Shown: positions 20,962 through 36,488 of the stretch, one piece after another | How positions within the stretch are numbered: position 1 is the stretch's first letter | How the letters are laid out: each line of letters opens with the position of its first letter | Assembly: GCA_001795735.1 (NCBI GenBank) | Contig: MGKQ01000014.1 | Span: forward strand, 5,625-58,691 | Reading direction: 5' to 3' | Origin: Candidatus Yanofskybacteria bacterium RIFCSPLOWO2_02_FULL_41_13 | GTDB taxonomy: Bacteria; Patescibacteriota; Minisyncoccia; 2-02-FULL-40-12; GWA2-44-9 | DNA: 53,067 bases | Made by a program: the position numbers and the translations under genes | Notes under the pieces: generated by a model | The model's database searches: none | Told to the model about the DNA's origin: nothing | What the model saw: only the letters and a program-made list of their open reading frames with translations

Positions 20962-22557
20962 TTATATCGCGGGGTGGAGAAATGGCATCTTGCAGGGCTC
21001 ATAACCCTGAGTTCCGGGTTCGAATCCCGGCCCCGCAACTAAGTCAGACCCATTGCCTGAATATGCTTGAGAAAGCGTGAATACAGGCGACAAAACAGCG
21101 GTGCCAATAGTTTCTGTTTTTCTATCAAAGATAATACCCTTTGGTAGCACCAGACGTTGGAATCGCTGTTTTTGTTTTGGGTCCATATCCTGCCATTGCC
21201 TAGAGATATTGCGCATAAACTTTGTTGCATAAGTTATCGCAGTTTCCATATCATACCCGTCAAGCTTTGTTTCGTTAGACGATATTTGCACGCCTGTAAT
21301 TTTATTATCCAACTCGTCCTTTAGGCGGCTAAATTCCTCTTTACTAATCTCGCCACCAATTCGCAGGTCCAATAGGCGCTGTTTTTTATTTAGTAAACTA
21401 TTCAGCTCTTTTTCATAGACAGTATTTAATCTCTGACTGTTATCGTGTTCTTTTTTCCATACTTCAATAACGGCTGTCTCAAAAATATTTAAAAAATCAT
21501 TGGTGGGACTAATTTTTTTCAGAAATGCGACAAATATTTCCTCTAGCTTATCGCGTGATATATTCCGGTTATAGTTTTGACACCCCCGAGTGTTGCACCT
21601 ATAGTATGAGTACCGTTTACTCCTACCAGACTGCCAGCTGCCAGTATATTTACCTCCGCACGTACAGGATACAAGTCCCCTTAAAACAAAGTCTGGGTTT
21701 AATTTTAATCGGGGTTTAGTGGCATTATTAGACAAACCAGATTTATAAAATTGTATTTGATTATGTTCCTCTGGTGAGATTGCCGGCTGGTGAAGCCCTT
21801 GGTGCCCCTCACTTGTCCACGGATTTATTAGGATACCGGAATAATATTTGTCGCGAAGCATTTTCTCAACCAGTTGCTTGTATATAGGCCTACCTGTCCG
21901 CGTTTTTAGTCCCCACTCTTGAAATGCTCCCGTAAGCGTTGTAATGGTGTGCTCACCGCGCGCAAATGCTTTTAAGCCCCTCTGGATTAAATAGAAACGT
22001 TCAGGGTCTATTTCGTCAGGACTATTTTTCCGTCGGTCACTTAATTTTTTACCGTGAATATAGCCAATGGGTGGCTGCCAAGGCCAAATACCTTCGATTA
22101 TTTTTCGCTGCATACCACCCTCACACCTCATTTTTCTTACGTCGTTCTCGAATTGAGCAAAAGTCGCTAACATACCCTCCATTGCCTTACCAGTAGCCCC
22201 TATCCCTATCATTGGCTCCATTACGGAATATAAAACGGTGCCATATTTTAAAAGTTGTGCCTGAAGCGCATAATGGTCAATCATATTGCGAGAAAACCTG
22301 TCCAACTTAAATACAATAAAATAATTAATTTTATCTTTATGTTCGCAACAGTAGGCTAAAGCCTTCGTAAGCTCAGTTCTATTAGCCGCCGTTGCGCTTT
22401 CCCCCTCCTCAATAAAGACCCTATCAACAGAAATACCATTGCGTTCAGCATATTCCAAACAAGCGATTTTTTGACTGGCAAGACTTGTTCCCTTTACTTG
22501 GTCTTGTGACGAAACCCTACAATAAATTATTCCGCGTGTTTTCATTTTGCTATTCAA
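20962..22557 (-). CDS. Large serine recombinase (element 1)
   Basis: YCRVSSQDQ nucleophile motif, recombinase domain, Zn ribbon (CTCG...YRCNTRGC), coiled coil; last 23 aa are read from the antisense of tRNA-fMet. Confidence 0.93.
   Translation of the reverse strand: MNSKMKTRGIIYCRVSSQDQVKGTSLASQKIACLEYAERNGISVDRVFIEEGESATAANRTELTKALAYCCEHKDKINYFIVFKLDRFSRNMIDHYALQAQLLKYGTVLYSVMEPMIGIGATGKAMEGMLATFAQFENDVRKMRCEGGMQRKIIEGIWPWQPPIGYIHGKKLSDRRKNSPDEIDPERFYLIQRGLKAFARGEHTITTLTGAFQEWGLKTRTGRPIYKQLVEKMLRDKYYSGILINPWTSEGHQGLHQPAISPEEHNQIQFYKSGLSNNATKPRLKLNPDFVLRGLVSCTCGGKYTGSWQSGRSKRYSYYRCNTRGCQNYNRNISRDKLEEIFVAFLKKISPTNDFLNIFETAVIEVWKKEHDNSQRLNTVYEKELNSLLNKKQRLLDLRIGGEISKEEFSRLKDELDNKITGVQISSNETKLDGYDMETAITYATKFMRNISRQWQDMDPKQKQRFQRLVLPKGIIFDRKTETIGTAVLSPVFTLSQAYSGNGSDLVAGPGFEPGTQGYEPCKMPFLHPAI
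20968..21038 (+). tRNA. tRNA-fMet (CAT), initiator; integration target
   Basis: C1:A72 mismatch, anticodon stem CAGGG/CCCTG with three G:C pairs, loop CTCATAA, TTCGAAT; no encoded CCA. Confidence 0.95.
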
Positions 22558-22567
22558 TTTATCCTTT

Positions 22568-22702
22568 CTAATAACCGTTATCGCATTTAATTTCTAGTCC
22601 AAAGGGCGTAAAAAACTCTACCTCATTAAAATCTTTATCTCGGAATTGAAAGGTCGCAAAGCTAGTGGGCTCATTACTTTTAAGGTTATTTGAGCTTTCC
22701 AC
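22568..22702 (-). CDS. Possible 44-aa small ORF directly upstream of recombinase 1
   Basis: Manual: GTG...MESSNNLKSNEPTSFATFQFRDKDFNEVEFFTPFGLEIKCDNGY; stop is followed by AAGGA and the recombinase start. Confidence 0.3.
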   Translation of the reverse strand: MESSNNLKSNEPTSFATFQFRDKDFNEVEFFTPFGLEIKCDNGY

Positions 22703-22775
22703 GGATTTTTATAAATAAAAATCCAATACTGTTCTCACTTTATCTAGCTTTTTTACTGGGGCTATTTTGCACTGG

Positions 22776-23285
22776 TTATTTATATACTTTTATATCACCT
22801 AAAAACGACGTAACCTCGCCGACTTTTTCGTCAGAGTAAGCGTCTTTTACTTCAAAATGCTGGTAGCCAGTAATAGCTTTTTTAAGCGTGGCTATTTTTG
22901 CCATAAAGTCTTTTTTAAATGCAACGGTTTGGGTATACCACGTAGCACCTGCATATACTACGGACGCTCTGTCGGAAAACTCGTAAGAGATAACTAAACC
23001 AGCTCGTTTTGCTAAGTCCATTACCTCATTAAGTTCTTTTTGTGCTGCCTCTTTAGACATTGTTGGACTAGCTGTCGGGGTTGCTGTTGGCTGGGATACG
23101 GTGTTAACTGGCTGATTTTGGACTGGTGAGATATTTTTACTATCGTCTGTAGCAGCACCAATTATGCCAATAAAAATAGTCACGGCTATCGTTGTTACAG
23201 TAACCCTTTTTCTAAAGCTCCAGCTTTTGTATTTTTGAATCCACGACCCCAAGCCTGTACCTGACATTTGTGTTTGTTGTTCCAT
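22776..23285 (-). CDS. Hypothetical membrane-anchored protein
   Basis: TM, Pro/Thr linker, small globular domain. Confidence 0.75.
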   Translation of the reverse strand: MEQQTQMSGTGLGSWIQKYKSWSFRKRVTVTTIAVTIFIGIIGAATDDSKNISPVQNQPVNTVSQPTATPTASPTMSKEAAQKELNEVMDLAKRAGLVISYEFSDRASVVYAGATWYTQTVAFKKDFMAKIATLKKAITGYQHFEVKDAYSDEKVGEVTSFLGDIKVYK

Positions 23286-23344
23286 TTTTTTAAATTATTT
23301 TTTATTTTTATGTCGCTCGACCTAACGACATTACACTACTATTT

Positions 23345-23502
23345 GGGCGGGCTTATTTAAACACAAAACCCGCCACAGGTGCGCCTTGCGGCGCATACAG
23401 GCCTTTCGACCTGCAACGTTCGACACGCCCTATGACGGGGTTAATATGTCGAACGGTTTTTTGCCATACCCACAAGAAAAAACCTGTGGGGTTAGGCAAC
23501 TC
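23345..23502 (-). ncRNA. Candidate multi-stem structured RNA or leader
   Basis: Minus-strand stems CGTTCGACA/TGTCGAACG, CAGGTC-GAAA-GGCCTG, TGCGCC-GCAA-GGCGCA (GNRA loops), CCCACAGG/CTTGTGGG. Confidence 0.55.
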
Positions 23503-23673
23503 TAATTTGTAGTTATTATAGCACATTTTAGGGTTCAGAGGTTTTAAGATTAATATTTTGGTTAATTTTGGTATTTAAAATTGATAAAAAATGGCTAATT
23601 ACCTAACAAATATGTGTTTTGTTCCCCCGTTTTTTAGTAATTTACTCAAAGTAACCCATATAAAACCTCATTT

Positions 23674-24516
23674 TCACTGGATTAATCTTCGGATAATATT
23701 GTTTATGTAAGCAGCAGGGTTATCAATTTTTTCTTTTGTTTTTAGTTCGTCAAAATGCTTGTAAGCTTGCTCTATTACTTTTAAACCGTGTTTATCGAGA
23801 ACTGAAAGTAAAAACTTCATATCTTGTTCCTCAACCTCTTGTGCTATAAGCCAAATCCTTTCCTCGTCCTTATTTTGTGGGTAAAAGCCATTATTGGTTA
23901 AAAGATTACGATTATTTAGTTTATTAAAAGGCGGCTTTGCCGCTCTTAATATATCGTAAGATATATTAAGAGTATTATTATCTTTTTTCTTATGGGTATG
24001 AGTATCCGTATTGTAACCTCTGACTTGGTTGGGTTTGAAAGGAAAAGAAAACATAGATAAAATGTCGTCTTTTTGCTTTTCCAACTTGTGACTAGCGGCT
24101 TCAACTTCGGGTTTAACCTCTGACTGGTTTGGGCTGTTTGTACTGTCCTCACTCGTGACCATTTCGGGATTAAAATACTTATCCAATGTTCTGATAATAT
24201 TATTAGGCATTATAAAATCACCAAAGTTCACCTCAAACGAACCTTTGCTACCCTGGCGGTCTTGATACCATATCAACTTTTTACCCCGTAATGACAGTAA
24301 TAATTTGTTAACGTAGTTCCCGCTAACCTTTCCGCCAAAAACGTCATTATTTATATCGCTTATACTTGTCACGGCTACCCCGTAGGGACTGCAATTAAGC
24401 CGTAAGTGCAGATACATAAAATACTCATTGCGGCTTATAACTTTCTTACGATAGAGCGACAAAATATCTCTTTGAAAATTAATCCAATTTTTAATTTTAT
24501 TTGGGCTGCTGCTCAT
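23674..24516 (-). CDS. Replication-initiator-like protein (putative wHTH N-terminus)
   Basis: YFMYLHLRLNCSPYG...VNKLLLSLRGKKLIWY wHTH-like; C-terminal KIDNPAAYINNII as in Rep/DnaD-type tails. Function inferred. Confidence 0.55.
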   Translation of the reverse strand: MSSSPNKIKNWINFQRDILSLYRKKVISRNEYFMYLHLRLNCSPYGVAVTSISDINNDVFGGKVSGNYVNKLLLSLRGKKLIWYQDRQGSKGSFEVNFGDFIMPNNIIRTLDKYFNPEMVTSEDSTNSPNQSEVKPEVEAASHKLEKQKDDILSMFSFPFKPNQVRGYNTDTHTHKKKDNNTLNISYDILRAAKPPFNKLNNRNLLTNNGFYPQNKDEERIWLIAQEVEEQDMKFLLSVLDKHGLKVIEQAYKHFDELKTKEKIDNPAAYINNIIRRLIQ

Positions 24517-24673
24517 AATTTTTTATGTTTTTGGTATTTTTATCTACAGGATTTTTAAGCCGGTACTCCGAGATAAATTCAGCAAGCGCAAGACAAGCGT
24601 CATAAAGCTGCTTATTTTTTTCTTTTTCACCCGTTTTATCGTCTAGGGTTTTATTTAACTTTCTATTTCTCAA
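24497..24673 (-). CDS. Possible 58-aa ORF overlapping the Rep-like start
   Basis: Manual: TTG...MRNRKLNKTLDDKTGEKEKNKQLYDACLALAEFISEYRLKNP...QQPK. Confidence 0.4.
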   Translation of the reverse strand: MRNRKLNKTLDDKTGEKEKNKQLYDACLALAEFISEYRLKNPVDKNTKNIKNYEQQPK

Positions 24674-24740
24674 ATTTAAATACCCCCAAGCAGCAGCCCC
24701 GCCGTTTGAGGGTATTTAAATGGGGCTGCAAACTTGTTTT

Positions 24741-24811
24741 AAACAAAAAACCCAGGTGATAAACACATAAACGCACGCAAAAAACGCGTATTTATGTGTT
24801 TACTACCTGGG
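24741..24811 (-). terminator. Long hairpin with U-tract upstream of Rep-like operon (attenuator-like)
   Basis: Minus strand CCCAGGT-AG-TAAACACATAAA...TTTATGTGTTTA-TC-ACCTGGG then TTTTTTGTTT. Confidence 0.6.
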
Positions 24812-25076
24812 TACTTAGGCCGTTTTAGGCATTATTTTGCCAAAAGATTGGATTGACCCCTATTGAGTGCCGCTAGGTTCCGTACTAAGTGGTATATGAT
24901 AACGGGTTTTGGTTATTTCCGTGTTTATACATTAACTTCACCGTGGGCAACGTGCAGTAAAACACTAAGGTATTTTGTGCCCTTTGGGACGGGCAACTTT
25001 GTTAATACGCAGATAATAGCACCCTGGTTTTGTAAGTCAACTATTTTAAGATATAATTAAAGCTAACACAGCCCCA

Positions 25077-25982
25077 ATGGCAAATCTATTTTTTATATTA
25101 TTACTAGTCTCTTTTGCGTCTTTAGTCGCCGGTCTTGTTAAACCGTCTCTATTTACTCGCATAAAACTACCAACAAGAAAACTCGTTGGACTAGTTTTTG
25201 GTGGAATAATGTTTGTGTCCCTTATCGGTATTGGTGCTACTGCACCCTCAAAACCTGAAACTGAATTAAAAAATGAGCAGCCACAGACAACTGTAACTGC
25301 AGCGCCAACTACAAAGGCCGCCCCGCTAAATCAGCAAGATACTAACGAGCAAGCCGACTTGTTTTTAGTAACCCGAGTAATCGACGGCGATACAATTGAA
25401 ATTGAGGGTGGGCAACGAATTAGATATATCGGTATAGATACACCTGAAACTGTTGACCCAAGAAAGCCGGTTCAATGTTTTGGAGTTGAAGCGTCTAATA
25501 AAAATAAAGAGCTGGTTTTAAATAAAAAGGTACGCCTTGAAAAAGACGTTAGTGAAGCTGATAAATACGGACGCTTACTGCGCTACGTTTATATTGGAAA
25601 TACTTTTGTAAATCTTGAGCTTGTACAACAGGGCTATGCTTACGCTTCAAGCTATCCACCTGACATTAAGTACCAAAACCAATTTACTAGCGCCCAGAGC
25701 GAAGCCAGAGAGCAAAACAAAGGGCTTTGGGGTGGCTGTCCTGTTGTTACTCAAACGACCACACCAATAGCCACACCAACGTTTACACCGCAACAGACAC
25801 AGCCACCCTCGTCTTGCGATATTAAAGGCAATATAGCTTCAGACGGCGAGAAAATATATCACGTAATTGGTTGTGCCTCATATAACGTAACAAAAATAGA
25901 CGAAGCACGCGGCGAGCAATGGTTCTGCACCGAGCAGGAAGCAGTGACGGCTGGCTGGCGAAAAGCATATAATTGTCCGTAG
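25077..25982 (+). CDS. Thermonuclease (SNase) family secreted nuclease with C-terminal Cys/His metal-binding domain
   Basis: RVIDGDTI, RYIGIDTPE, DKYGRLLRYV, AREQNKGLW; CDIKGNI...IYH...C...WFCTEQEA..AGWRKA. Confidence 0.92.
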   Translation: MANLFFILLLVSFASLVAGLVKPSLFTRIKLPTRKLVGLVFGGIMFVSLIGIGATAPSKPETELKNEQPQTTVTAAPTTKAAPLNQQDTNEQADLFLVTRVIDGDTIEIEGGQRIRYIGIDTPETVDPRKPVQCFGVEASNKNKELVLNKKVRLEKDVSEADKYGRLLRYVYIGNTFVNLELVQQGYAYASSYPPDIKYQNQFTSAQSEAREQNKGLWGGCPVVTQTTTPIATPTFTPQQTQPPSSCDIKGNIASDGEKIYHVIGCASYNVTKIDEARGEQWFCTEQEAVTAGWRKAYNCP

Positions 25983-26073
25983 TATGAACTATTATTTAGA
26001 GCTGATTAATCTTACAAGGCCTGCCCTAAAATAGGTGTGCCCATAAACTCTGTAAACCTAATAATATCAGCTA

Positions 26074-27744
26074 TTATTTGGTGCCAACTGCGTAACACTT
26101 CCGCAACAGAGAAGGAGAAGCAGACACAAAAGTGTCTGTTTTTCTTGTAATAGAGCCATTACTTAGCGGTTCGAAAGTGTAATTATTGGCTTTTAGGTCT
26201 TCCGAGATTATTTGGAGTGGGAAAAGCACATTATCTAAGGAAATGCTCAGCTTTTTGTCTTTTAATATGAAGTTCGAACCTAAAACCGAAAGTATCTGTC
26301 TTTTCACTTGAAGATCCTTGGTTGTATCAAATTTCTTCTTAGCATTTTCGGCAAACCTAAATACATCCTCAGCTAGTTCGAGCCAGTGTTCAACTCTCTT
26401 CCCAATATTCTGCATCCCGTTCTCTAGGCGCTCTTTTTCTCTTAATGTCTCGGATTTCTTAGTCAGATACTCTTGTTCAGTTAGTTCTTTGGCAGCTCTC
26501 ATATCAATTAAACCATCCAGCTTTTTAAGACATAGGTCGTAAGCTCTTTCTTGAGTAGCTAAAATCTGACCGCGTTCTTCTGATTCTTTAGCATTTTCAG
26601 ATTTTAACCATTTCATCGCAAATTCGTGGAAATCAGTTGGTATTTCAATTTTTTCTATAATTGAAGCAACCTGCTCGTTTAGAACATGCTCCTGGATTGC
26701 GTGCTGAGTGCAGTTTCGATTTTTACTCTTAGTGCAACGATAAATAATATAGTGGTGGATCGTGCCATTTTTTTGTTTCTTATATTTATCCTCAATGGTT
26801 ATCTGGCTGGTACACTCCCCGCATTTTATTATCCCACCACCGTAAGTAAACATTTTATCTTTCCTTGGTTTGGCTTTTAGCTTACTTCCCAATAAGAATT
26901 GAACTCGATTAAAAGTTTCTTCGCCTATCATTGGTTCGTGAGATCCTTTATAAAAACTACCGCTGCCTCTCGGATATTCGAAATAGCCGTAATAAAAACT
27001 ATCGTTGAATATTTTATATAGCGTACTCATAGACATTGGGCGACCGCCCTGTCTTTTGGAAGCTCTACTTTTATAACCCCAATCGTCATTCATCATTTTT
27101 TGAATTCGCCTTACACTGTAAGTTCCCATCGCCATCAGCTCCCAAGCTTTTTTAATTAAATCAAATCTTTCTAAATCTTTTTTGATATATCTTGAACCAC
27201 CGGCTAATTCGGGAGTATTTAGATAACCTGCCGGAGCAACACCGGGCATAGAACCTCGTTCACATTTAGTGGTTAAACCTCTTTTAACAACTTTGCTTTT
27301 ATCATCTGAATCTTTTTTGGCTATACCAAACTCTAACTGTAAAAAGAATTTATCGTCAGATTCGTTATAGTAGGTTTTGGTTACTGTTTTTACTTCTTTG
27401 ACAGTGCCTTCGTCCATAGCAGTAATAATCCAACCACCATCAAAAGCATTCCGGGCCAAACGATTTCCATGCCAAGTTAAAATCGAATTTGCCTCTCCTC
27501 TCTCAAGTCCAGCCATCATAGTTCCAAATATTTTTCGGCCGCGAGTATGAGCTGATTTCTCTTCTCTAAAAATCTTAACGACATGGAGTCCTTGATCCTC
27601 GGCTAATCTCTTTAGCTCCTTTTCTTGAGATTCAATGGACTGCATTTGCCGCTCCTTATTATCCTCGGAACTCTTACGACAATACATGTAGTATTTAACC
27701 CTGTCAGTATTAGTATGTTTCATAAATTTGCTATATTTTACCAC
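26074..27744 (-). CDS. Large serine recombinase (element 2)
   Basis: YCRKSSED, RLARNAFDGG, GVAPAGYLN, Zn ribbon (CGEC...YRCTKSKNRNC), coiled coil. Confidence 0.93.
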   Translation of the reverse strand: MVKYSKFMKHTNTDRVKYYMYCRKSSEDNKERQMQSIESQEKELKRLAEDQGLHVVKIFREEKSAHTRGRKIFGTMMAGLERGEANSILTWHGNRLARNAFDGGWIITAMDEGTVKEVKTVTKTYYNESDDKFFLQLEFGIAKKDSDDKSKVVKRGLTTKCERGSMPGVAPAGYLNTPELAGGSRYIKKDLERFDLIKKAWELMAMGTYSVRRIQKMMNDDWGYKSRASKRQGGRPMSMSTLYKIFNDSFYYGYFEYPRGSGSFYKGSHEPMIGEETFNRVQFLLGSKLKAKPRKDKMFTYGGGIIKCGECTSQITIEDKYKKQKNGTIHHYIIYRCTKSKNRNCTQHAIQEHVLNEQVASIIEKIEIPTDFHEFAMKWLKSENAKESEERGQILATQERAYDLCLKKLDGLIDMRAAKELTEQEYLTKKSETLREKERLENGMQNIGKRVEHWLELAEDVFRFAENAKKKFDTTKDLQVKRQILSVLGSNFILKDKKLSISLDNVLFPLQIISEDLKANNYTFEPLSNGSITRKTDTFVSASPSLLRKCYAVGTK

Positions 27745-27795
27745 ATTTTGTGAGTAAAATATAGGATTAATTGATTTCTGCGAAACGAACCCATT

Positions 27796-28701
27796 TTACC
27801 GGTCATTGCCTATATCTACGTCGATGGCGAATGGTATAGGAGGCCTTTCACCTCGACGAAGCGACTGCAATCTTTGTAATTCATGTATCGCCCTATAAAG
27901 ACCTTTTTCCAAGGAGGCCTCATAACGAGTAAGTTTTTCGAGAGTTTTATCATCCGGGATACTCTTTGCCATCAAGTCACTTTCGTCTTCGAGATGTTCT
28001 TTTTCTTCAATGTTTTTGAGGAAACTGCCAAATAATTCTTTTTGTTCCTGAACCAATTTAAGGAAAGCCTCCTTGGCAGCTTCTTTCGGAACCAGACAAG
28101 GTTCACCATCTATTTCCTCCTGCTTCATCATCACATTCATAGTCGCAGCCATAATAGCAAAATTGTTTCCTTCTTCACCGAACTGATTATGGATAAGATC
28201 TATAGTTTCATCAGATATAAAACCTTGGCTTTTAACCTCATCCTCGGCAGTTTCAACTAGCCCAATTAAACTTTGAATACCGAAAGATGCCTGAAACCTT
28301 TTAGAACGAAAAATATCTATAAGCTTCTGGTGTTGATTCTCTTGTTCTGCTCGCTTGGTAATACTATTAATCATGTGACTATCCTGCAATTTCCTGACTT
28401 CGCCTACTTCAGCCCTCATAACCCGTTGCAAGCGCCAATAGGAGCTGATAATGCGGTCTACGAGCATTTCCTCGGCTAATCCGATGGGCTGAAAATCCTC
28501 GACTAATCTTTCGGTGATAACTTCAAACATTTCTAAATCCTCTTCACCGTCGCCGGTGGTAATGATTGATGACTTAGATAAAATGCCGTGCTTCAAAGAA
28601 TTTAATTTACTGATTGATTTGCCATCATCTGAAGTTGGACCTGTCGATTTAAGGGCATTCTGCTGATTAGCAATAATTTGTTTTTCTGATATTTCGCTCA
28701 T
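27796..28701 (-). CDS. Hypothetical protein with N-terminal ANxxNAxKSTGP...N(S/A)LKHG motif
   Basis: ANQQNALKSTGPTSDDGKSISKLNSLKHGILS; LEKLTRYEASLEKGLYRAIHELQRLQ; co-oriented just upstream of recombinase 2. Confidence 0.8.
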   Translation of the reverse strand: MSEISEKQIIANQQNALKSTGPTSDDGKSISKLNSLKHGILSKSSIITTGDGEEDLEMFEVITERLVEDFQPIGLAEEMLVDRIISSYWRLQRVMRAEVGEVRKLQDSHMINSITKRAEQENQHQKLIDIFRSKRFQASFGIQSLIGLVETAEDEVKSQGFISDETIDLIHNQFGEEGNNFAIMAATMNVMMKQEEIDGEPCLVPKEAAKEAFLKLVQEQKELFGSFLKNIEEKEHLEDESDLMAKSIPDDKTLEKLTRYEASLEKGLYRAIHELQRLQSLRRGERPPIPFAIDVDIGNDR

Positions 28702-29163
28702 GCTAGTTAACTTTGTAGACTTCTATTTCCGACTTATCTTGATCGACCTTGTAAACTCTCCACCGGTCCTCGGGTAATATCCAATCGTGGTGAATAAAAT
28801 GTTTGGCATCATCTAATGTAAGAAAGCATCCTCGTTCTTTAAATTCTTTTTGATAGGAATTTTCATTTTTCCAGATAACCTTATAATGCGGGAATACATT
28901 TTTGGCATTTTTATTTGCTTCAAGTAATTCGTTGAACTCAATAACTTCGTCTGTCGTTCTGGCTATAAATTCCCACAAGTTATCCGAGATTTTATAGAAG
29001 ATAGTTTCTAATTCTTCAGCGGTCAGATTTCGCTCAAGGTATCCTTCTCCTGCTAATTCTTGAATGAAGTCAAAATCTATTATTATTTGTTCCTTATTAT
29101 TTATTGTATTTTCCATAGTTTTGGTTTTAGTTATTTTTTAATTTTTTCTGACATTTCGCTCAT
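28681..29163. repeat. 21-bp direct repeat (20/21) flanking a single gene
   Basis: TTTTTCTGATATTTCGCTCAT (28681-28701) and TTTTTCTGACATTTCGCTCAT (29143-29163). Confidence 0.85.
28703..29116 (-). CDS. Hypothetical protein (137 aa)
   Basis: Acidic ORF between the 21-bp repeats. Confidence 0.7.
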   Translation of the reverse strand: MENTINNKEQIIIDFDFIQELAGEGYLERNLTAEELETIFYKISDNLWEFIARTTDEVIEFNELLEANKNAKNVFPHYKVIWKNENSYQKEFKERGCFLTLDDAKHFIHHDWILPEDRWRVYKVDQDKSEIEVYKVN

Positions 29164-29180
29164 TTTTCCTATGTTATTAG

Positions 29181-29252
29181 CGCGACACAAACTCCGAATG
29201 TATCACTTAAAAGGTGTTCTCTACCGTCCTATCATTCGGAGTTTCTGTCGCG
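29181..29252. repeat. Inverted pair of the CGACAGAAACTCCGAATG motif
   Basis: CGCGACACAAACTCCGAATG (29181-29200, +) and CGCGACAGAAACTCCGAATG (29233-29252, -), 32-bp spacer. Confidence 0.9.
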
Positions 29253-30622
29253 TCAAATAAGTTTGGTGGGGGTAGTTCTTTTACCTCTTCTTCCACCTGA
29301 GGCATATTCTCAATGCCGTATGCCTTGGTTAGGGCATTCTGAATATCTTCTCTCAGGAACCAATGCCACGGTTGATTAGGTGGGCCATCAGGTTCTTTGT
29401 AGGCATCAACCATTTTAAGCGCTTCGAGCTCTTTAAACAGGCGCTGGAAGGTTCTATGAGACCGATGAGGTAACAAGGCCTGCAACTCCTTACTGGTTAA
29501 GGAAGGGCGGGTATTTAATTGCTTAAACAACTGCTGGACGGCTTCGGCCCGATCAACAGGCATTGTTGAAAGACCGATTTCAGCTAATGTTTTCATCTCG
29601 TCCGTGGTTACAGTTTCCTTGCCCCGGACTATGGCTAAGTAACGGCTCAGCCCCCTTAGCTGAAGTAACGCCCGCCAAGGTTCCTCGACTTGAACATCTT
29701 CGACCTCGTAATAGGTTCTGTCCTTGCCTTCATCATCTTTGAATGACTGCTGTTTGGTTAAAACAGTGCCCCTCCCCCTAGATACCAATACCGCCAAGCC
29801 ATTTAATATCTCCTGAATATTTACATCTTCCGGCAATAGGATTGGATTTTTGCCATCAATTTGGGTTATATATGAATACATAATCTCTCGGGCATATTTA
29901 ATTAATCCTTTACGCTTTTCACTCTGCCAAGCGATACCGAAACCTTTTCTTTCCCGTTCAGAAGTAAGTTCTGGCAACCTGATAAACAAAAATCTGGCTC
30001 CGATCATATCGATATATCGGCGATGTTTATTTAATGCTGCCGGAGTGATACATCCTAATAAAGAAAACTTAGCTTTATATGACTTCAGTCCTCTTGTCGG
30101 AGAAAACTTGGCAAATTCCTCGTCGTAAATTGCGACGAGTTCTCCTAAAAGTTTTTTAACCGTCTCCTCGTTTAAGGAAAATAGGGTGGTCATATCTCGA
30201 ATGACAAGACACTTATTATCCAACTCATCCAATAGGTCATAGCTTTTACGACCTTTAGGAGCTACATAGCCGGACGAGAAAGGATTGCTTGTCAGGGTAT
30301 CGAGATAATAGATATGCGATAATCCACGAAGTGCTTTAACGAGCTCCGTTTTCATTGATGATGGTGGTCCAACAAGAACACCCCAAAGTGGCACATCAGC
30401 AAGGTCAGATTTAAGCGAGGAGTAAGCAATTGCCATTGCAATATCAATTACTTCACGGCTAACGGCTCCGATTTTCTCAAAAGCTTGATATACTTCCTCA
30501 AGCTCAATGTGTCGGGTTATTAATTCAACATCAGGATCCTTTTTATTATCCTTAATCTCAGATTCAATTTTCTGAAACTCTTTTTCAATCTGAGGTTCTA
30601 CTTTTGTATAATCTTGTTCCAT
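29207..30622 (-). CDS. AAA+ ATPase, putative replicative helicase
   Basis: Walker A-like LVGPPSSMKT, Walker B-like CLVIRD, RFL motif, C-terminal wHTH-like; downstream of primase-like and SSB-like genes. Confidence 0.7.
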   Translation of the reverse strand: MEQDYTKVEPQIEKEFQKIESEIKDNKKDPDVELITRHIELEEVYQAFEKIGAVSREVIDIAMAIAYSSLKSDLADVPLWGVLVGPPSSMKTELVKALRGLSHIYYLDTLTSNPFSSGYVAPKGRKSYDLLDELDNKCLVIRDMTTLFSLNEETVKKLLGELVAIYDEEFAKFSPTRGLKSYKAKFSLLGCITPAALNKHRRYIDMIGARFLFIRLPELTSERERKGFGIAWQSEKRKGLIKYAREIMYSYITQIDGKNPILLPEDVNIQEILNGLAVLVSRGRGTVLTKQQSFKDDEGKDRTYYEVEDVQVEEPWRALLQLRGLSRYLAIVRGKETVTTDEMKTLAEIGLSTMPVDRAEAVQQLFKQLNTRPSLTSKELQALLPHRSHRTFQRLFKELEALKMVDAYKEPDGPPNQPWHWFLREDIQNALTKAYGIENMPQVEEEVKELPPPNLFDATETPNDRTVENTF

Positions 30623-30723
30623 CGTCAGTGAGTACCGTCTCCAGTTCGGATCCTTGATAGCGGGGACTCACTGGAAGCCTTTCGCTACAAGAACCCGAAC
30701 TGATTACAAAGGCGGTCATTAGA

Positions 30724-31023
30724 TTAATCGTTTTCCCAAGTTTCAATTTCAAAGTTTTTATATTCTCTGCCGGTTTTCTCGGACATAACGAAACCAAGAA
30801 ACTTAATCTGAAGTTTCGTTCCGACAGCCATTTCTTTTAAGTGATTATCGAGCAAGGTATTCCCCCAAAACGAAACCTCTTTACCGTCTTCTTTTTTGAC
30901 AAAATACATATTGGAACCATTCTTGCCCTGATTTTCCTTAACGCCCACATATTCACCTTCTAAATCACCATTCTCTTCAAAGTTCCAAATATCTGACTTC
31001 TTAATTAATTTCTTCCAAGCCAT
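30724..31023 (-). CDS. Small OB-fold ssDNA-binding-like protein
   Basis: WNFEENGDLEGEYVG...VSFWGNTLLDNHL...LQIKFLG...YKNFEI; function inferred. Confidence 0.55.
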   Translation of the reverse strand: MAWKKLIKKSDIWNFEENGDLEGEYVGVKENQGKNGSNMYFVKKEDGKEVSFWGNTLLDNHLKEMAVGTKLQIKFLGFVMSEKTGREYKNFEIETWEND

Positions 31024-31030
31024 TTCTATT

Positions 31031-31654
31031 TTAAATTCCGTTAAGAAATCTTACGGCGTCAGGAAATTTGAGACCGTTTAATTCCATAACGAAACTGATT
31101 GCGTCGCCTTTTTTGCCACATCCATAACAGTGAAAACGATTTTCAGGATAAACATAAAATGAAGGCGTTTTCTCATTATGAAAGGGGCATAAGGCAACTG
31201 ATTTATTTCCTAATTTTTTAAACTGCCCATTAACTACATTTTCTATTGGTGCTACCCTCGCTCTCTCTATATCTTCCTCGGTAAGCCGTCCTTTGGGGAC
31301 TCGACCTCGACTTACCGACTTTAATCGTTTCAACCGCTCAATATTCTGATTTATTTTTAATAACTCCGGACCATCAAATACCTTTACAATCTCCCGCCAG
31401 AACCATTGATTCTCTGGAGCTGATTTTTGGCTAATTACTGACAATTTTCTTTTTATAATGACGGCCACCCTATCTCCTTCTTCCTGCCATTCGGCAATCT
31501 TTTCTGGTATGATTTCTCGGGCTTCTGGAAATATGTTGAGTAGCTCACTATCCGAAAGTTTCGGCTGAACACTTCGCCATTGTTTTTCTAAATCCCAGGC
31601 ATAATTCAAAAAATCCAAATCAATATTTTCAGTTTTGTTTTGTATTTGGTTCAT
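31031..31654 (-). CDS. CHC2 zinc-finger (DnaG N-terminal-like) protein
   Basis: CPFHNEKTPSF...FHCYGCGKKGDAISFVMEL; no TOPRIM domain follows. ATG 31654 or GTG 31675. Confidence 0.88.
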   Translation of the reverse strand: MNQIQNKTENIDLDFLNYAWDLEKQWRSVQPKLSDSELLNIFPEAREIIPEKIAEWQEEGDRVAVIIKRKLSVISQKSAPENQWFWREIVKVFDGPELLKINQNIERLKRLKSVSRGRVPKGRLTEEDIERARVAPIENVVNGQFKKLGNKSVALCPFHNEKTPSFYVYPENRFHCYGCGKKGDAISFVMELNGLKFPDAVRFLNGI

Positions 31655-31805
31655 TTTCTTTTTGTTCTTTGCCACTAATGTAAACGGCTTTGTATAAATT
31701 CACTAAGTTATTGGCCCTTAGTGCCGCCTCTTCAACGGAAAGCTCAATGCCATAATGGCGAAGGTATAGTTCCCGGTATTCTTTTATGGCTTCTGGTGGT
31801 AACAT
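31629..31805 (-). CDS. 58-aa hypothetical protein (missed by ORF track)
   Basis: Manual: MLPPEAIKEYRELYLRHYGIELSVEEAALRANNLVNLYKAVY...; fills the gap and overlaps both neighbours' boundaries as in an operon. Confidence 0.7.
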   Translation of the reverse strand: MLPPEAIKEYRELYLRHYGIELSVEEAALRANNLVNLYKAVYISGKEQKENEPNTKQN

Positions 31806-31806
31806 T

Positions 31807-32082
31807 TTAAAAGTTATCTTGATAAAGTTTTTCCTTTAAAATCTTTATTGACTGGATTAGCTTCCTTGAATCGACCATCACCTCGGAATTATTTTCTCTG
31901 CCAAAATTAAAACTCTCCGTTAGCGTCATTCGCTCTGGAGAATCATTAAAGATAAATGCCGATCGTCTCGGATCAGTAATCTTATCGATATTTAGTAGCT
32001 CAATTCCTTTTGCAAATAGAAAAACCGCAAGATAAAAACTTGTGGTTCTGAAATGTTCTTTTTGATGTGGATCCTTATTCAT
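31807..32082 (-). CDS. DUF5659-like small protein
   Basis: FRTTSFYLAVFLFAKGIELLNID...RSAFIF; ATG 32082 preferred. Confidence 0.65.
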   Translation of the reverse strand: MNKDPHQKEHFRTTSFYLAVFLFAKGIELLNIDKITDPRRSAFIFNDSPERMTLTESFNFGRENNSEVMVDSRKLIQSIKILKEKLYQDNF

Positions 32083-32144
32083 ATGCTTATAGGGGCTGCC
32101 TCCCCTCAATACATAATGGGTCCACATCTGTCAGCTAAAACTAA

Positions 32145-32167
32145 AAGACCCCTTATTGGGGGGTCTT
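32145..32167 (-). terminator. Hairpin after the 501-aa gene
   Basis: AAGACCCC/GGGGTCTT stem followed on the minus strand by TTAGTTTT. Confidence 0.5.
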
Positions 32168-32185
32168 GGTCTTTATTAAATATTT

Positions 32186-33691
32186 TTATTTCCGGCGATA
32201 CTTGCTGCGTTTTTTAATTAGCTCTTGAGCTGAATTGAAATCGTCTTCTGTGTAACAACGATACAAACCAACTCTTCGGGGACTCAAGATCTTATTTAGG
32301 TCCCATCTTTTGAGAGTAGTCCTTGAAACTCCGGTCATAGTTATGAATGTATCTCTTTTCCAACCCACTTTTTCCCCATTTTTATCTTTTAGATCATAGG
32401 GTGACAATGTTCCTAGATTTTCATCTATATCTTTCTGTGATATGTCGTCGAAGCCAAACAGAGATGTGTTACTTTTATATTTGGATGTCCCTAGCCTTTT
32501 TGGATTTAGATCTTTTAAAGCTTCCTCACTAAATATAGATGAATCACCCTCATATTCCGAGCCTCCTAGCTTTTTGCGCATTAAATCTTTTAAAGCTCTT
32601 TCATAAAATGCGGTAAACGGATATTCGTCTGAATCTGTAACTAAACCCAACCGGGTTAATAATCCGCCGCGACCGATAAGAGAAAATAATTTAGGTTCGT
32701 GGAAATTTTTTTCAAGCTTTTTTGCAGATGCGTAGAAAAAATCGAAAGATTTTAATTTTGGTGCTATTTCTTGTTTTATCCACTCTGTCATTTCTGCCTT
32801 CTTATCTTCGCTAAAATACGTCCCCGATCGTTTCTCGTACTGATTAATACCCGATCTTAATAATGGCTCATACATCAAGAAAAGCTGTTCACGAAATGCC
32901 GGCCCCAATTTCGGATGGGGTAAGGGTTTAAAGAATGCCATGGCAACTATATAATTATTAACTTGCTGATATTCTTTGGTATTTTTTAGTTGAGAAAAGG
33001 TTTTATTATTAAACGGTAACTTTAAATATCGAAAATAATCATCCCACTGAAGTAGGGGTAAAACTTCAAATCCGTAGAAGCCATCTTGATATAAGCAAAG
33101 TCTTTTCCACTCTTCTTCGAATGATTTTTTGAATTTATCATCGGATTTAATGGTATATAGCTCAAGATGTTTTAGATTAAGAAAACTGAATGATACGTAT
33201 TGAAATTTATCTAAAAATGAAACAACAAAATCGGGATAACCCTCTTCTTTAACATACTCCTTACTGTTTATTTTTAATGTTTCGAGTAGGACTTTTAAGG
33301 TTAGCCTCTTTAATGTCTCCTCGTCATTGCTTAAATATACACGCCAATATTCTAAATTTTTTAATATTTTAGATTCGAGACCGGGAATTAATATATCCAA
33401 TAAAAACGTTAAGACCTCCTCTCCCGGTCTTTTTATTATCTCCTCTCGCAAATTATAAAAATCCTCATCATCTAATGAGTAGCCGGGAGCTGGTTTTTGG
33501 CTCAAGATCCATTTTTTATAAATTTTAAGGAGGGCGGGGTGTAATTTAAGATATTCGACATACTCCTCCTCAAATACTGGTGTCACAGTAAAACTATCTA
33601 GCGCTATATTTCTAGTTCTACTGCTCAGACAATCGCGAACAGACTCCTCCCGTAGGGCCTGATAAAAAGGTTTTGTATTCTTATTTTCCAT
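32186..33691 (-). CDS. 501-aa protein with C-terminal MerR/excisionase-like HTH
   Basis: C-terminal MTGVSRTTLKRWDLNKILSPRRVGLYRCYTEDD. Confidence 0.7.
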   Translation of the reverse strand: MENKNTKPFYQALREESVRDCLSSRTRNIALDSFTVTPVFEEEYVEYLKLHPALLKIYKKWILSQKPAPGYSLDDEDFYNLREEIIKRPGEEVLTFLLDILIPGLESKILKNLEYWRVYLSNDEETLKRLTLKVLLETLKINSKEYVKEEGYPDFVVSFLDKFQYVSFSFLNLKHLELYTIKSDDKFKKSFEEEWKRLCLYQDGFYGFEVLPLLQWDDYFRYLKLPFNNKTFSQLKNTKEYQQVNNYIVAMAFFKPLPHPKLGPAFREQLFLMYEPLLRSGINQYEKRSGTYFSEDKKAEMTEWIKQEIAPKLKSFDFFYASAKKLEKNFHEPKLFSLIGRGGLLTRLGLVTDSDEYPFTAFYERALKDLMRKKLGGSEYEGDSSIFSEEALKDLNPKRLGTSKYKSNTSLFGFDDISQKDIDENLGTLSPYDLKDKNGEKVGWKRDTFITMTGVSRTTLKRWDLNKILSPRRVGLYRCYTEDDFNSAQELIKKRSKYRRK

Positions 33692-33742
33692 TCTTATTTT
33701 TACTGAAAGTAGCTTAATTTAAGCATTTTCTCAAGACCTATC

Positions 33743-33764
33743 AGCACGACAGAAACTCCGAATG
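33743..33764 (+). repeat. 22-bp motif, direct-repeat copy A
   Basis: AGCACGACAGAAACTCCGAATG, identical to 38217-38238. Confidence 0.95.
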
Positions 33765-33822
33765 TTGCCTATAGCTCGGAAATGTATTACCCTATATCCA
33801 GCATTATTAACAAGGAGCTGTC

Positions 33823-34221
33823 ATGGCCGATCACGTAGAAAAAGATAGCTATTTCCAAAGATTACTAAAATCCTATCTGGATTATCGTCCTGGAAGCGAA
33901 CGAGAACTCGCCGATGAGTTTAGGACGGCGGTTGGTACCATAACCAGATGGGCAAATGGACATTCTCGTCCTGCTCAAAAAGCAGAACAAGCAATCGTCT
34001 CAGCTCTTCAGGAGAAAATATACCGAGAATTACAAGATACATTAATTAATCATCTTATGGATAATAACGACCACCTTACAGTTGATTTTGCATCGGAACT
34101 TGCTTCTGAGTTTGAAGTAGCTAAATCGACAGTAAGGCGTTGGGCAAACGGAACGGCTCGTCCACATCCGCGACTTGCCCTGATGATTATTGGATATGTG
34201 AAAAATAGGGAGACAAAGTAG
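33823..34221 (+). CDS. Tandem XRE-like HTH protein
   Basis: Two repeats: ELADEFRTAVGTITRWANGHSRP and ELASEFEVAKSTVRRWANGTARP; SD AAGGAG. Confidence 0.75.
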   Translation: MADHVEKDSYFQRLLKSYLDYRPGSERELADEFRTAVGTITRWANGHSRPAQKAEQAIVSALQEKIYRELQDTLINHLMDNNDHLTVDFASELASEFEVAKSTVRRWANGTARPHPRLALMIIGYVKNRETK

Positions 34222-34223
34222 TC

Positions 34224-34868: not shown

Positions 34869-34971
34869 GGAGTCTAATGAAGCAGCCGACTGATCGTCGG
34901 TTTTTTGTTGAAATAAAAGAGCCCCGGCAGAGGTCGTGCATTCTACACGGGGCTCTCTGTCGGGGCTTACT

Positions 34972-36471: not shown

Positions 36472-36488
36472 GTCAGGAGGAGCGAACA

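What the first reader, a model, noticed from the sequence alone, without database searches (positions are those of the whole stretch)
20962..26107. att site inside the recombinase gene: integration swaps the C-terminal tail
Seen: integrated recombinase 1 ends ...VA-GPGFEPGTQGYEPCKMPFLHPAI, read from tRNA antisense. Joining its frame to the sequence left of core 2 (circular form) gives ...VA-EVLRSWHQIIADIIRFTEFMGTPILGQAL* (26100-26012), an open amphipathic-looking helix. Recombinase 2 likewise changes from ...LR-KCYAVGTK* to ...LR-GLKDLHSAIMAVSGYWPFQFVRTW* (38316-38242). Known: attP within a gene alters protein ends in SSV1 integrase and some mycobacteriophage repressors. Inference: the tail switch may control directionality or stability without a separate RDF, and neighbouring elements supply each other's tails. 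The integrated gene is also transcribed antisense through the initiator tRNA.
Basis: partly seen in the sequence, partly recalled or inferred. Interest (0 to 1): 0.85.

Follow-up and report, generated by a model that had tools for sequence, protein, structure and literature searches.

The report
Recombinase tail swapped by integration
Two small mobile elements sit in tandem at an initiator-tRNA gene, and each is moved by a serine recombinase whose crossover site lies inside the end of its own gene, so integration or excision exchanges the enzyme's last ~25 amino acids; hundreds of relatives share this design, and I found no description of it for this enzyme class.

Summary
A 7-nt core (CCGCAAC, the 3' end of tRNA-fMet) occurs at 21033, 26101 and 38317. 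It bounds two tandem elements of 5.1 kb and 12.2 kb. Each element has a large serine recombinase (LSR) gene that reads across a core.

In 120 rec1 homologs, 79 end in tRNA-antisense peptide and 29 in a conserved helix-like tail (xVGRNW[NH]QIIxDIKEI). The rec2 family does the same in another frame.

- 57 of 80 genome loci overlap an opposite-strand tRNA.
- About 25 integrated elements carry the missing tail, in frame, at their far end.
- A 9,885-bp circle carries a helix-type gene.

The tail is dual-coded. Codons 5-8 (GATTGGAACC) copy the tRNA T-arm, 4-5 bp farther from the core, which matches the known attP/attB register shift. Codons 9-20 show protein-level selection (pN/pS 0.41). AlphaFold gives a confident helix for the circular form and disorder for the integrated form.

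Not shown: any effect on directionality or stability, or excision of these two particular elements.

The closest analogue is phage Mx8 IntP/IntX, a tyrosine integrase. I rate this a new variant of a known kind.

The parts
20968..21039 (+). Initiator tRNA-Met(CAT) gene. This is the integration target (the B' half of attB). It remains intact after integration.
   Evidence: ARAGORN and Rfam tRNA at 59 bits. C1/A72 mismatch and GGG/CCC anticodon stem read.
21033..21039 (.). Core copy 1 (CCGCAAC): the junction between the tRNA and element 1. The crossover lies somewhere within these 7 nt.
20962..22557 (-). rec1, a large serine recombinase in its integrated form (531 codons; gene callers start at M5, giving 527 aa). 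Codons after ...LVA (20962-21033) are antisense to the tRNA.
   Evidence: Pfam Resolvase E 2.6e-27 and Zn_ribbon_recom. AlphaFold and Foldseek match SPbeta, Bxb1, phiC31 and A118 integrases. Translation.
21040..26100 (.). Element 1, about 5.1 kb. It holds rec1, two unknown ORFs, a LOOT RNA and an SNase-like nuclease ORF (25077-25982, +).
   Evidence: bounded by core copies 1 and 2
26012..26101 (-). Orphan 3' coding segment of rec1, which is also the P' arm of its attP. It encodes EVLRSWHQIIADIIRFTEFMGTPILGQAL* once joined to rec1 in the circular form. It contains the T-arm-like motif CAGTTGGCACC.
   Evidence: Joined translation. Family tail profile hit at 26101, 21.8 bits. Helix at pLDDT 85-87.
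26101..26107 (.). Core copy 2: a hybrid junction between the right end of element 1 and the left end of element 2 (an attP-type P1-core-P'2 arrangement).
26074..27744 (-). rec2, a second large serine recombinase, 23% identical to rec1. Its last 8 codons plus stop (26074-26100, KCYAVGTK*) are encoded by element 1 DNA.
   Evidence: Pfam Resolvase, Recombinase and Zn_ribbon_recom. Translation, comparison. P0193 carries the same neighbour-derived tail.
26108..38316 (.). Element 2, about 12.2 kb. It holds rec2, a DnaG-type zinc-finger primase-like ORF, HTH regulators and many unknown ORFs. No virion genes were detected.
38242..38316 (-). Orphan 3' coding segment that would complete rec2 in the circular form (GLKDLHSAIMAVSGYWPFQFVRTW*).
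   Evidence: Translation. Resemblance to the family consensus xLD[DE]VRTxIM...W* is by eye only.
38315..38327 (.). Core copy 3 with extended identity (CCCCGCAACAGAG). This is the right junction of element 2: a displaced tRNA 3' fragment followed by the original tRNA downstream flank.

Best explanation
**Shown.** The region is a tandem array of two small integrative elements inserted at the 3' end of the initiator tRNA gene. Each is moved by a large serine recombinase (LSR) whose attP is embedded in the last ~5% of its own ORF.
- The P arm is the codons before ...LVA (rec1) or ...LLR (rec2).
- The core is the last 7 nt of the tRNA gene.
- The P' arm is the final ~25-30 codons.
- Recombination with the tRNA site therefore detaches those codons to the far end of the element and fuses the gene to tRNA-antisense sequence, or to the next element's end in an array.
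- Excision, or a same-family neighbour, restores the native tail.
- This is the normal architecture of two LSR families. They target Met, Glu, Ala, Lys, Arg, Ile and Asn tRNA genes in Patescibacteria/CPR and several other phyla.

**Shown by sequence statistics.** The P' arm is dual-coded.
- Codons 5-8 (consensus GATTGGAACC) copy the antisense tRNA T-arm (GATTCGAACC), placed 4-5 bp farther from the core. This is the register difference by which LSR zinc-ribbon domains tell attP from attB.
- Codons 9-20 are selected as an amphipathic helix.

**Inferred.**
- Element 2 integrated first, and element 1 then inserted between it and the tRNA.
- The free or array-internal enzyme carries a folded C-terminal helix next to the zinc-ribbon/coiled-coil region. 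The tRNA-proximal integrated enzyme carries a disordered substitute. The element's state is therefore written into its recombinase.
- The most likely consequence is a change in activity, partner preference or stability of the integrated copy, as for Mx8 IntX.

**My estimates.** Architecture and tail swap 0.95. The tail is a functional protein element 0.7. The swap has a regulatory consequence 0.4.
For: **Window**
- Anatomy.
- LSR identity: Pfam, AlphaFold plus Foldseek to SPbeta 9dxh, Bxb1 9iu2, phiC31 9rah and A118 4kis, PDB profile search.

**Bimodal C-termini**
- rec1 family: 79 tRNA-antisense, 29 helix-type, 12 fragments or other, out of 120.
- rec2 family: at least 61 tRNA-antisense and 18 helix-type.
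- Clusters at 90% identity hold both forms of one recombinase.

**Genome survey**
- 57 of 80 loci have the ORF end overlapping an opposite-strand tRNA, and at least 6 more have tRNA-like tails.
- The tail profile finds an orphan tail on the same strand at 28 sites in about 25 integrated elements, 2.5-10 kb upstream. In the junctions checked, it is in frame behind a 5-10-nt core identical to the tRNA end.

**Circular form**
- A 9,885-bp circle was recovered as three exact rotations from three sequencing runs. It carries a helix-type rec2-family gene.

**Dual coding**
- Third-position conservation in codons 5-8.
- Invariant second-position T with free first and third positions at codons 9, 10, 13 and 19.
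- pN/pS 0.41 for codons 9-20.
- T-arm motif shifted 4-5 bp in 16 of 22 junction pairs. This matches the 5-bp ZD register shift stated in the phiC31 structure preprint.

**Structure prediction**
- Tail helix at pLDDT 85-87 against coil at 32-42.

**Order of insertion and arrays**
- L136, a host 79% identical in flanking DNA, has a rec2-family gene directly on tRNA-fMet with no element 1.
- Neighbour-supplied tails and arrays.
Against: - There is no direct evidence that either window element still excises. The predicted attP1 junction is absent from the JGI metagenome contigs. No member of the rec1 90% cluster has the circular tail.
- No circular contig was found for the rec1 family.
- The one same-recombinase pair examined at DNA level (L010 against L132) could be a k-mer assembly switch across an 83-bp repeat.
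- Seven helix-type genes lie in long contigs with no tRNA or array visible within 10 kb, for example L024 in 614 kb and L141 in 337 kb. The equation 'helix tail = free circle' is therefore too simple.
- Part of the tail conservation is a DNA-site constraint.
- Tails vary in length (17-53 aa) and diverge after about 20 residues.
- The rec2 circular tail in the window fits its family only weakly.
- No functional test of either isoform was possible.
Confidence: 0.6

Rival explanations
1. Neutral by-product. The ORF runs across attP only because compact elements place the site at the gene's end. The tail is dispensable, its apparent conservation comes from the DNA half-site, and the swap has no consequence.
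For: - Codons 5-8 are conserved at third positions, as expected of a DNA motif.
- Tails differ in length and in sequence beyond about 20 residues.
- Integrated genes with arbitrary tRNA-derived tails stay intact across many lineages.
- By a hand count of one pair, the five closely related tail copies in L006 differ with only weak purifying signal.
Against: - Hydrophobic positions 9, 10, 13 and 19 have invariant second-codon T with free first and third positions. They lie 27-57 bp from the core, beyond a usual LSR half-site.
- pN/pS is 0.41 for codons 9-20.
- Orphan tails at the far ends of integrated elements, and in recombinase-less cassettes, keep the frame and the helix pattern although they belong to no ORF there.
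- AlphaFold gives a confident helix.
- Two families only 23% identical, using different tRNA-antisense frames, have each kept a family-specific conserved tail.
Confidence: 0.3
2. Built-in directionality switch. The helix acts in cis like an RDF or anti-RDF on the zinc-ribbon/coiled-coil hinge. The free form would integrate only and the tRNA-tailed form would excise (or the reverse), with no separate RDF needed.
For: - The tail follows directly after the last zinc-ribbon strands and extends a helix that starts at residue 499.
- In phiC31 the extreme C-terminus of the integrase contributes to the RDF-binding surface on the ZD.
- Element 1 has only three other ORFs, none recognisable as an RDF.
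Against: - Nothing tests it.
- RDFs are too diverse to be excluded by annotation.
- In arrays, internal integrated copies regain a helix tail. The isoform therefore does not report 'integrated' against 'free' unambiguously.
Confidence: 0.12
3. Stability switch. The native tail carries a C-terminal degradation signal that integration removes, as in mycobacteriophage integration-dependent immunity. Alternatively, the integrated form is destabilised by its disordered tail, or by head-on or antisense conflict with tRNA transcription.
For: - 11 of 29 helix-type tails in the rec1 family end in -AA against 0 of 91 others. They are spread over subclades with otherwise different tail ends.
- Two rec2-family tails end in -IAA.
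- The integrated tail is predicted to be disordered.
- The integrated stop codon lies beyond the whole antisense tRNA.
Against: - The window's own tails end in -QAL and -RTW.
- None of 28 far-end tails from genome loci ends in -AA.
- No protease data exist for these hosts.
Confidence: 0.15
4. Chance or mis-delimitation. The 26101 and 38317 cores are coincidental 7-mers and the ORF extensions are accidental read-through.
For: CCGCAAC occurs 7 times in the window, about the chance expectation. Open frames of 24-29 codons are common.
Against: The position, strand and frame are exactly as predicted by a family profile. The same layout recurs in dozens of independent genomes. There is extended identity at 38315-38327.
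Confidence: 0.02

Closest known systems
Myxococcus phage Mx8 integrase IntP/IntX (Tojo 1996; Magrini 1999; summarised in PMC6070905; noted in Islander PMC4383910)
   Same: attP lies inside the integrase coding sequence. Integration creates a gene with a new 3' end, and the prophage form stays active but with changed properties. It has been called 'regulation by reversible covalent modification'. From memory, the Mx8 target also overlaps tRNA genes.
   Different: Mx8 Int is a tyrosine recombinase with arm-type sites and an excisionase (uoi). Here the enzyme is a large serine recombinase with a short site. The swapped segment doubles as the P' half-site and mimics the tRNA T-arm. The design is family-wide rather than a single phage.
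SSV-type ('suicidal') archaeal integrases (PMC7253208)
   Same: The recombination site lies within the integrase ORF, so integration rearranges the integrase gene. tRNA genes are the targets.
   Different: SSV integration splits the tyrosine integrase into two inactive halves. Here about 95% of the serine recombinase, with all recognised domains, stays intact and only the last 17-53 residues change.
Integration-dependent immunity of mycobacteriophages BPs/Brujita, clusters G, I, N and P (PMC4557955)
   Same: An intragenic attP means integration replaces a protein's C-terminus and removes an ssrA-like tag. The integrase there also has a C-terminal proteolysis signal.
   Different: There the attP is in the repressor gene and the integrase is a tyrosine enzyme. 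Here the recombinase itself is edited, and an -AA end is seen only in a subset, not in the window.
Canonical large serine integrases (phiC31, Bxb1, A118/LI, SPbeta SprA)
   Same: Same domain order and fold. Short att sites. The attP half-site motif sits about 5 bp farther from the centre than in attB.
   Different: In the examples I know (from memory), attP is intergenic next to int and targets are protein-coding genes. The Islander paper states that serine integrases were not known to target tRNA genes. Here the target is a tRNA 3' end and attP is inside the ORF.
Tandem accretion of integrative elements and cis-mobilizable elements (CIMEs/IMEs) at one att site; integron cassette arrays as a layout analogy
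   Same: Arrays of elements, some without a recombinase, share one target and are bounded by repeated att-type sites (window; L006; L055).
   Different: Each unit here also carries a spare C-terminal coding segment for the recombinase. Integrons use a tyrosine IntI and folded attC sites. No membership is implied.
Tycheposons of Prochlorococcus (preprint 10.1101/2020.12.28.424599)
   Same: Small tRNA-associated integrative elements with replication genes. 27 of 937 carry a large serine recombinase.
   Different: The passages matching 'serine recombinase' in that text say nothing about an intragenic attP or a tail swap. Whether their LSR elements share this design was not tested.

Membership tests
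Large serine recombinases (serine integrases) | N-terminal resolvase-type catalytic domain with the serine nucleophile | tested here: met
   Pfam PF00239, E 2.6e-27 (rec1) and 1.7e-16 (rec2). The R10-V11-S12 motif is invariant in 35 homologs.
Large serine recombinases (serine integrases) | Recombinase domain followed by a zinc-ribbon domain with an inserted coiled-coil | tested here: met
   PF13408 hits in both proteins. PF07508 is met for rec2 and below cut-off for rec1 (17.4 against 21.1 bits). AlphaFold shows long paired helices at 349-396 and 402-426 between zinc-ribbon strands. Foldseek E 1e-15 to 1e-18 against SPbeta, Bxb1 and phiC31 integrases.
Large serine recombinases (serine integrases) | Short attP and attB in which the ZD-binding motif lies about 5 bp farther from the crossover in attP than in attB | tested here: met
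   The T-arm motif GAACC lies at nt 19-23 (tRNA side) against nt 24-28 (tail side), counted from the G of GTTGC. A shift of 4-5 bp is seen in 16 of 22 junction pairs. The rule is quoted from the phiC31 preprint.
Large serine recombinases (serine integrases) | 2-bp staggered cleavage at a central dinucleotide, and RDF-dependent excision | not testable with these tools
   Only a shared core of about 5-10 nt (7 nt most often) can be defined. No RDF was identified.
Mx8-type integrase with intragenic attP | Tyrosine recombinase catalytic domain | tested here: not met
   There is no Phage_integrase domain in rec1 or rec2; both are resolvase-type. It works like Mx8 in the gene-editing sense but is not a member.
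Mx8-type integrase with intragenic attP | attP inside int, so integration gives an integrase with a different C-terminus | tested here: met
SSV-type suicidal integrases | Integration splits the integrase gene into two non-functional parts | tested here: not met
   The integrated ORFs keep all three recognised domains. Only the last 26 (rec1) or 8 (rec2) codons are foreign.
Integration-dependent immunity (BPs-like) | [quoted passage not shown] | tested here: not met
   The edited gene is the recombinase, not a repressor. The window tails end in -QAL and -RTW. An -AA end is present in 11 of 29 homolog tails only.
Integrons | IntI tyrosine recombinase, an attI site and attC-bounded promoterless cassettes | tested here: not met
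   The recombinase is of the serine type. The repeated sites in L006 are attP-like duplex sites that include a tail-coding arm.

The most novel reading that the evidence does not exclude
The recombinase's C-terminus is a physical record of the element's state, and the enzyme reads it. With the native helix (free circle, or internal position in an array) it behaves as an integrase. With the tRNA-derived tail it becomes excision-competent, inert or short-lived. That would give directionality control without a dedicated RDF. Because every element, and every recombinase-less cassette, carries a spare tail behind an attP-like site, the system would also work as an LSR-driven cassette platform at tRNA genes, in which each newcomer re-completes its neighbour's recombinase.
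Probability: 0.15. Interest if true: 0.85.

Novelty: new variant of a known kind. Interest (0 to 1): 0.65.

Why it matters
1. A 2015 reference paper on tRNA-linked islands states that serine integrases were not known to target tRNA genes. Here two LSR families do so systematically, in at least seven tRNA isotypes and several phyla, and they look like a main integration system of Patescibacteria.

2. The att site is readable from the protein. The universal T-arm supplies one recognition motif, and the tail codons W-N-Q are its copy shifted by 4-5 bp. This gives a natural, interpretable example of how LSRs tell attP from attB, and of how specificity moves between targets by changing a short core. 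Both points bear on engineering integrases for new sites.

3. It extends 'integration edits the integrase gene', known from Mx8 and SSV tyrosine enzymes, to serine recombinases. It supplies many natural isoform pairs for testing whether a C-terminal swap tunes directionality or stability.

4. Practical point: gene callers and LSR/att-site mining pipelines will mis-annotate these C-termini, and will miss attP if they search only intergenic DNA.

Tried and rejected
**Searches for a free form of the window's elements**
- An exact scan for the predicted element 1 circular junction in JGI metagenome contigs found nothing.
- The rec1 90% cluster has only integrated forms.

**Searches for circular contigs in the rec1 family**
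- I tested L005, L007, L009, L047, L137-L139 and L145-L147 for terminal overlaps and found none.

**L010 as proof of excision**
- I first read L010 (P0188) as proof of an excised form. All four of its mismatches to the integrated copy lie in an 83-bp repeat and match the far-end copy. A k-mer assembly switch or an array junction therefore cannot be excluded.

**'Helix tail = free circle'**
- I rejected this as a general rule after finding such genes in 337-614 kb contigs and in an array.

**Viral contigs**
- The IMG/VR scan gave only distant or partial relatives and no informative complete genome.

**rec2 tail profile**
- It is too short to detect the window's rec2 tail.

**C-terminal -AA degron**
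- I considered it as a general explanation and rejected that, because it is absent from the window and from 28 far-end tails.

**D1 repeats in element 2**
- I checked whether the 27-nt D1 repeats mark sub-element boundaries. No core or tail lies next to them, so they look like operator-type sites.

**Literature**
- Searches found no description of tRNA-targeting LSRs with an intragenic attP. Subscription-only papers could not be searched.

Full report
**1.

The window carries tRNA-Met(CAT) at 20968-21039 (+). The sequence shows the initiator hallmarks: a C1/A72 mismatch and a GGG/CCC anticodon stem.

A 531-codon ORF (20962-22557, -) ends ...DLVA-GPGFEPGTQGYEPCKMPFLHPAI*. Its last 26 codons are the antisense of that tRNA.

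The 7-mer CCGCAAC, the last 7 nt of the tRNA gene, recurs at 26101 and 38317. The 26101 copy lies nine codons before the stop of a second ORF (26074-27744, -). The 38317 copy shares 9 nt with the tRNA end and 11 nt with the 26101 copy.

Open frames of this length are not significant in themselves. However, a profile built from 36 homolog tails without the window hits the rec1 'circular' tail at exactly nucleotide 26101, in the right strand and frame. It scores 21.8 bits (E 5e-4) and is the only significant hit in the window.

**2. What the genes are**

Both proteins are large serine recombinases.
- Both have the Resolvase and Zn_ribbon_recom domains. rec2 also meets the Recombinase domain cut-off; rec1 falls below it.
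- The predicted fold matches SPbeta, Bxb1, phiC31 and A118 integrases.
- They are only 23% identical to each other.
- They read the tRNA antisense in different frames: GFEP for rec1 and DSNP for rec2 relatives.

The DNA between the cores forms two elements.
- Element 1 (21040-26100, 5.1 kb) holds rec1, two unknown ORFs, a LOOT RNA and an SNase-like nuclease.
- Element 2 (26108-38316, 12.2 kb) holds rec2, a primase-type zinc-finger ORF, HTH proteins and unknowns.
- Neither has virion genes.

**3.

| Family | Hits examined | tRNA-antisense tail | Conserved helix-type tail | Other |
|---|---|---|---|---|
| rec1 | 120 | 79 (...LVAG[AVP]G[FI][EA]P...) | 29 (xVGRNW[NH]QI[IL]xDIKEIxxL) | 12 fragments or odd ends |
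| rec2 | 120 | at least 61 (LLRG[RWQ]DSN...), plus about 30 that stop one or two codons after the core | 18 (LLRxLD[DE]VRTx[IL]..., often ending in W) | remainder |

Many rec1-family tRNA-antisense tails stop at L* = TTATGA, the antisense of the CAT anticodon loop. The window's circular tail fits the rec1 helix-type consensus.

Clusters at 90% identity contain one recombinase with both kinds of tail. In two clusters, one recombinase is fused to many different tRNAs.

**4. Genomic survey**

Of 80 loci from species-representative genomes:
- 57 have the recombinase ORF end overlapping an opposite-strand tRNA: 25 Glu, 15 Met, 8 Ala, 3 Lys, 3 Arg, 2 Ile and 1 Asn.
- At least 6 more have tRNA-like tails that ARAGORN did not call.
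- 7 have helix-type tails.
- 5 run off the contig.

The hosts are mostly Patescibacteria/CPR. They also include Verrucomicrobiota, Acidobacteriota, Omnitrophota, Myxococcota and Nitrospira.

The tail profile finds an orphan tail-coding segment at 28 sites in about 25 integrated elements. Each lies 2.5-10 kb upstream on the recombinase strand. In the junctions checked, it stands in frame behind a 5-10-nt core identical to the tRNA 3' end. These segments belong to no ORF in the integrated state, yet they keep the frame. The window's layout is therefore the family norm.

**5. Is the helix form the free form?**

Direct support comes from the rec2 family. Three 9,915-nt contigs from three sequencing runs each have a 30-nt terminal overlap. 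They are exact rotations of one 9,885-bp circle that carries a helix-type gene, P0245.

For the rec1 family I found no circle. The apparent excised form L010 could be an assembly switch across an 83-bp repeat.

Helix-type genes also occur inside long chromosomal contigs. Arrays explain at least some of these.
- In the window, rec2 takes its last 8 codons from element 1. P0193, 86% identical to rec2, shows the same neighbour-derived tail in another sample.
- In L006 a helix-type recombinase is followed by four recombinase-less cassettes (GIY-YIG, a 717-aa unknown, PIN, CBASS). Each is bounded by an attP-like site that includes a full tail-coding arm.
- So the helix tail marks 'free, or followed by a same-family element'. 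The tRNA tail marks 'tRNA-proximal'.

L136 is a host 79% identical in the flanking BipA-tRNA region. It has a rec2-family gene directly on tRNA-fMet with no element 1. This fits element 2 having integrated first and element 1 having inserted between it and the tRNA.

**6. The tail is dual-coded**

In 45 distinct tail DNAs, codons 5-8 are conserved even at third positions, with consensus GAT TGG AAC C. Codons 9, 10, 13 and 19 have an invariant second-position T with free first and third positions. That is the signature of selection for hydrophobic residues in a helix.

For codons 9-20, which lie 27-60 bp from the core, pN/pS is 0.41.

The DNA motif GATTGGAACC is a near copy of the antisense tRNA T-arm GATTCGAACC. 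It sits 4-5 bp farther from the core: GAACC at nt 24-28 against nt 19-23. This holds in 16 of 22 junction pairs. It equals the 5-bp register shift of the zinc-ribbon domain between attP and attB half-sites described for LI and phiC31 integrases (the LI work is from memory).

The conserved 'W-N-Q' is therefore largely the attP half-site written in codons, and the distal helix is a protein feature.

AlphaFold2 agrees. The circular isoform's residues 499-523 are helical with pLDDT 85-87. The integrated isoform's residues 504-527 are coil with pLDDT 32-42.

**7. How it most likely works**

Shown:
- The site is inside the gene.
- The tail is exchanged.
- The tRNA gene stays intact because the core is its own 3' end.
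- The tail-coding arm mimics the T-arm in the attP register.

Inferred: the exchange alters the enzyme.

Precedents:
- Mx8 IntP to IntX, which is active but has changed specificity.
- BPs gp33, where integration removes an ssrA-like tag.
- In phiC31 the extreme C-terminus contributes to the RDF-binding surface of the ZD.

A hint for stability control comes from the tail ends. 11 of 29 helix tails end in -AA against 0 of 91 others. The window's tails do not, and nor do 28 far-end tails.

I estimate:
- 0.95 for the architecture.
- 0.7 that the tail is a functional protein element.
- 0.4 that the swap has a regulatory effect.
- About 0.12-0.15 each for the specific RDF-free directionality reading and the specific degron reading.

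**8. Relation to what is known**

It works like Mx8 IntP/IntX, and more loosely like SSV integrases and BPs integration-dependent immunity. It is a member of none of them, because it fails the tyrosine-recombinase, split-gene and repressor criteria.

It is a member of the LSR family by domains, fold and att-site register.

The Islander paper states that serine integrases were not known to target tRNA genes, and cites only Mx8 and SSV for integrases that extend across attP. The large LSR mining paper does not contain the word tRNA. The tycheposon preprint mentions 27 LSR-bearing elements among tRNA-associated islands without further detail.

I found no description of this design, but non-open literature was not searchable. 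My verdict is a new variant of a known kind.

**9. Limits**
- No experiment was possible, and no read-level data were available.
- The window's host was not identified. Patescibacteria is inferred from the homologs.
- The rec2 tail in the window matches its family only weakly.
- The reason for helix-type genes in some long contigs is unresolved.

Noticed in passing
L006:11400-18800: A helix-type recombinase is followed by four recombinase-less cassettes (DUF6884 with GIY-YIG; a 717-aa unknown; PIN; a CBASS CD-NTase). Each is bounded by an attP-like site with three parts: a P-like arm (GGTAATT plus an 11-nt hairpin insert), the core TTGCA, and a complete tail-coding arm (TVVRDWHRIIYDMQEM...). 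This is a defence-gene cassette array in which every unit carries a spare recombinase C-terminus.
   Followed up: partly
L132:1144-1300 and 11429-11511: The far end of an integrated element carries a 94%-identical duplicate of the last 83 bp of pre-core recombinase coding sequence ahead of the orphan tail. It is either a remnant of an earlier array member or an extended site. It makes contig L010 ambiguous as evidence for a circle.
   Followed up: partly
L142, L143, L144 (whole contigs): A 9,885-bp circular element was recovered as exact rotations from three sequencing runs. It encodes both a tyrosine integrase (Phage_integrase) and a rec2-family serine recombinase with the helix-type tail, plus a DEAD/SNF2 helicase and an N6/N4 methyltransferase.
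   Followed up: partly
L017:1685-2028 (-): The target tRNA next to the recombinase carries a group I intron (Rfam RF00028, 52 bits). This explains the long 'GAGIEPASGGSFTPAVSS...' tails and why ARAGORN called no tRNA at several loci (L012, L017, L026).
   Followed up: partly
window:23380-23498 (-): A LOOT RNA (Rfam RF03000, 84.8 bits against a gathering score of 46.4) lies inside element 1, between two unknown ORFs.
   Followed up: no
window:26121-26146: A hairpin, CAGACAC-AAAA-GTGTCTG followed by TTTTTCTT on the + strand, lies inside the end of the rec2 coding sequence, 13 nt 3' of the core. If element 2 sat directly on the tRNA, it would serve as a terminator for the tRNA. The same feature is present in the related locus L136. 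It may explain the conserved ...KTDxF[SA]S[AV]SP... residues in this family.
   Followed up: partly
P0028, P0039, P0042, P0043, P0057, P0058, P0059, P0061, P0073, P0077, P0090: 11 of 29 helix-type tails end in Ala-Ala, against 0 of 91 other family members. Their preceding residues differ otherwise. This may be an ssrA-like C-terminal degron that integration removes. It is not present in the window's tails.
   Followed up: partly
window:29175-29201, 33739-33765, 38213-38239 (inverted copy near 29232): There are three direct copies of AGCRCGACASAAACTCCGAATG spaced about 4.5 kb apart inside element 2, one with an adjacent inverted copy. They are not next to any core or tail, and they look like binding sites for a regulator.
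   Followed up: partly
window:35000-37000: G+C rises to 0.49-0.53 inside element 2 (about 0.40 elsewhere). Long overlapping ORFs lie on both strands (36025-36471 + and 36034-36501 -), with no family match.
   Followed up: no
L055:1917, 2406, 3162: Three orphan tail segments lie in tandem, 490-750 nt apart. Each stands behind the tRNA-Glu core GTGACC and a T-rich stretch. They are stacked att remnants or very small cassettes at the distal end of an integrated element.
   Followed up: no
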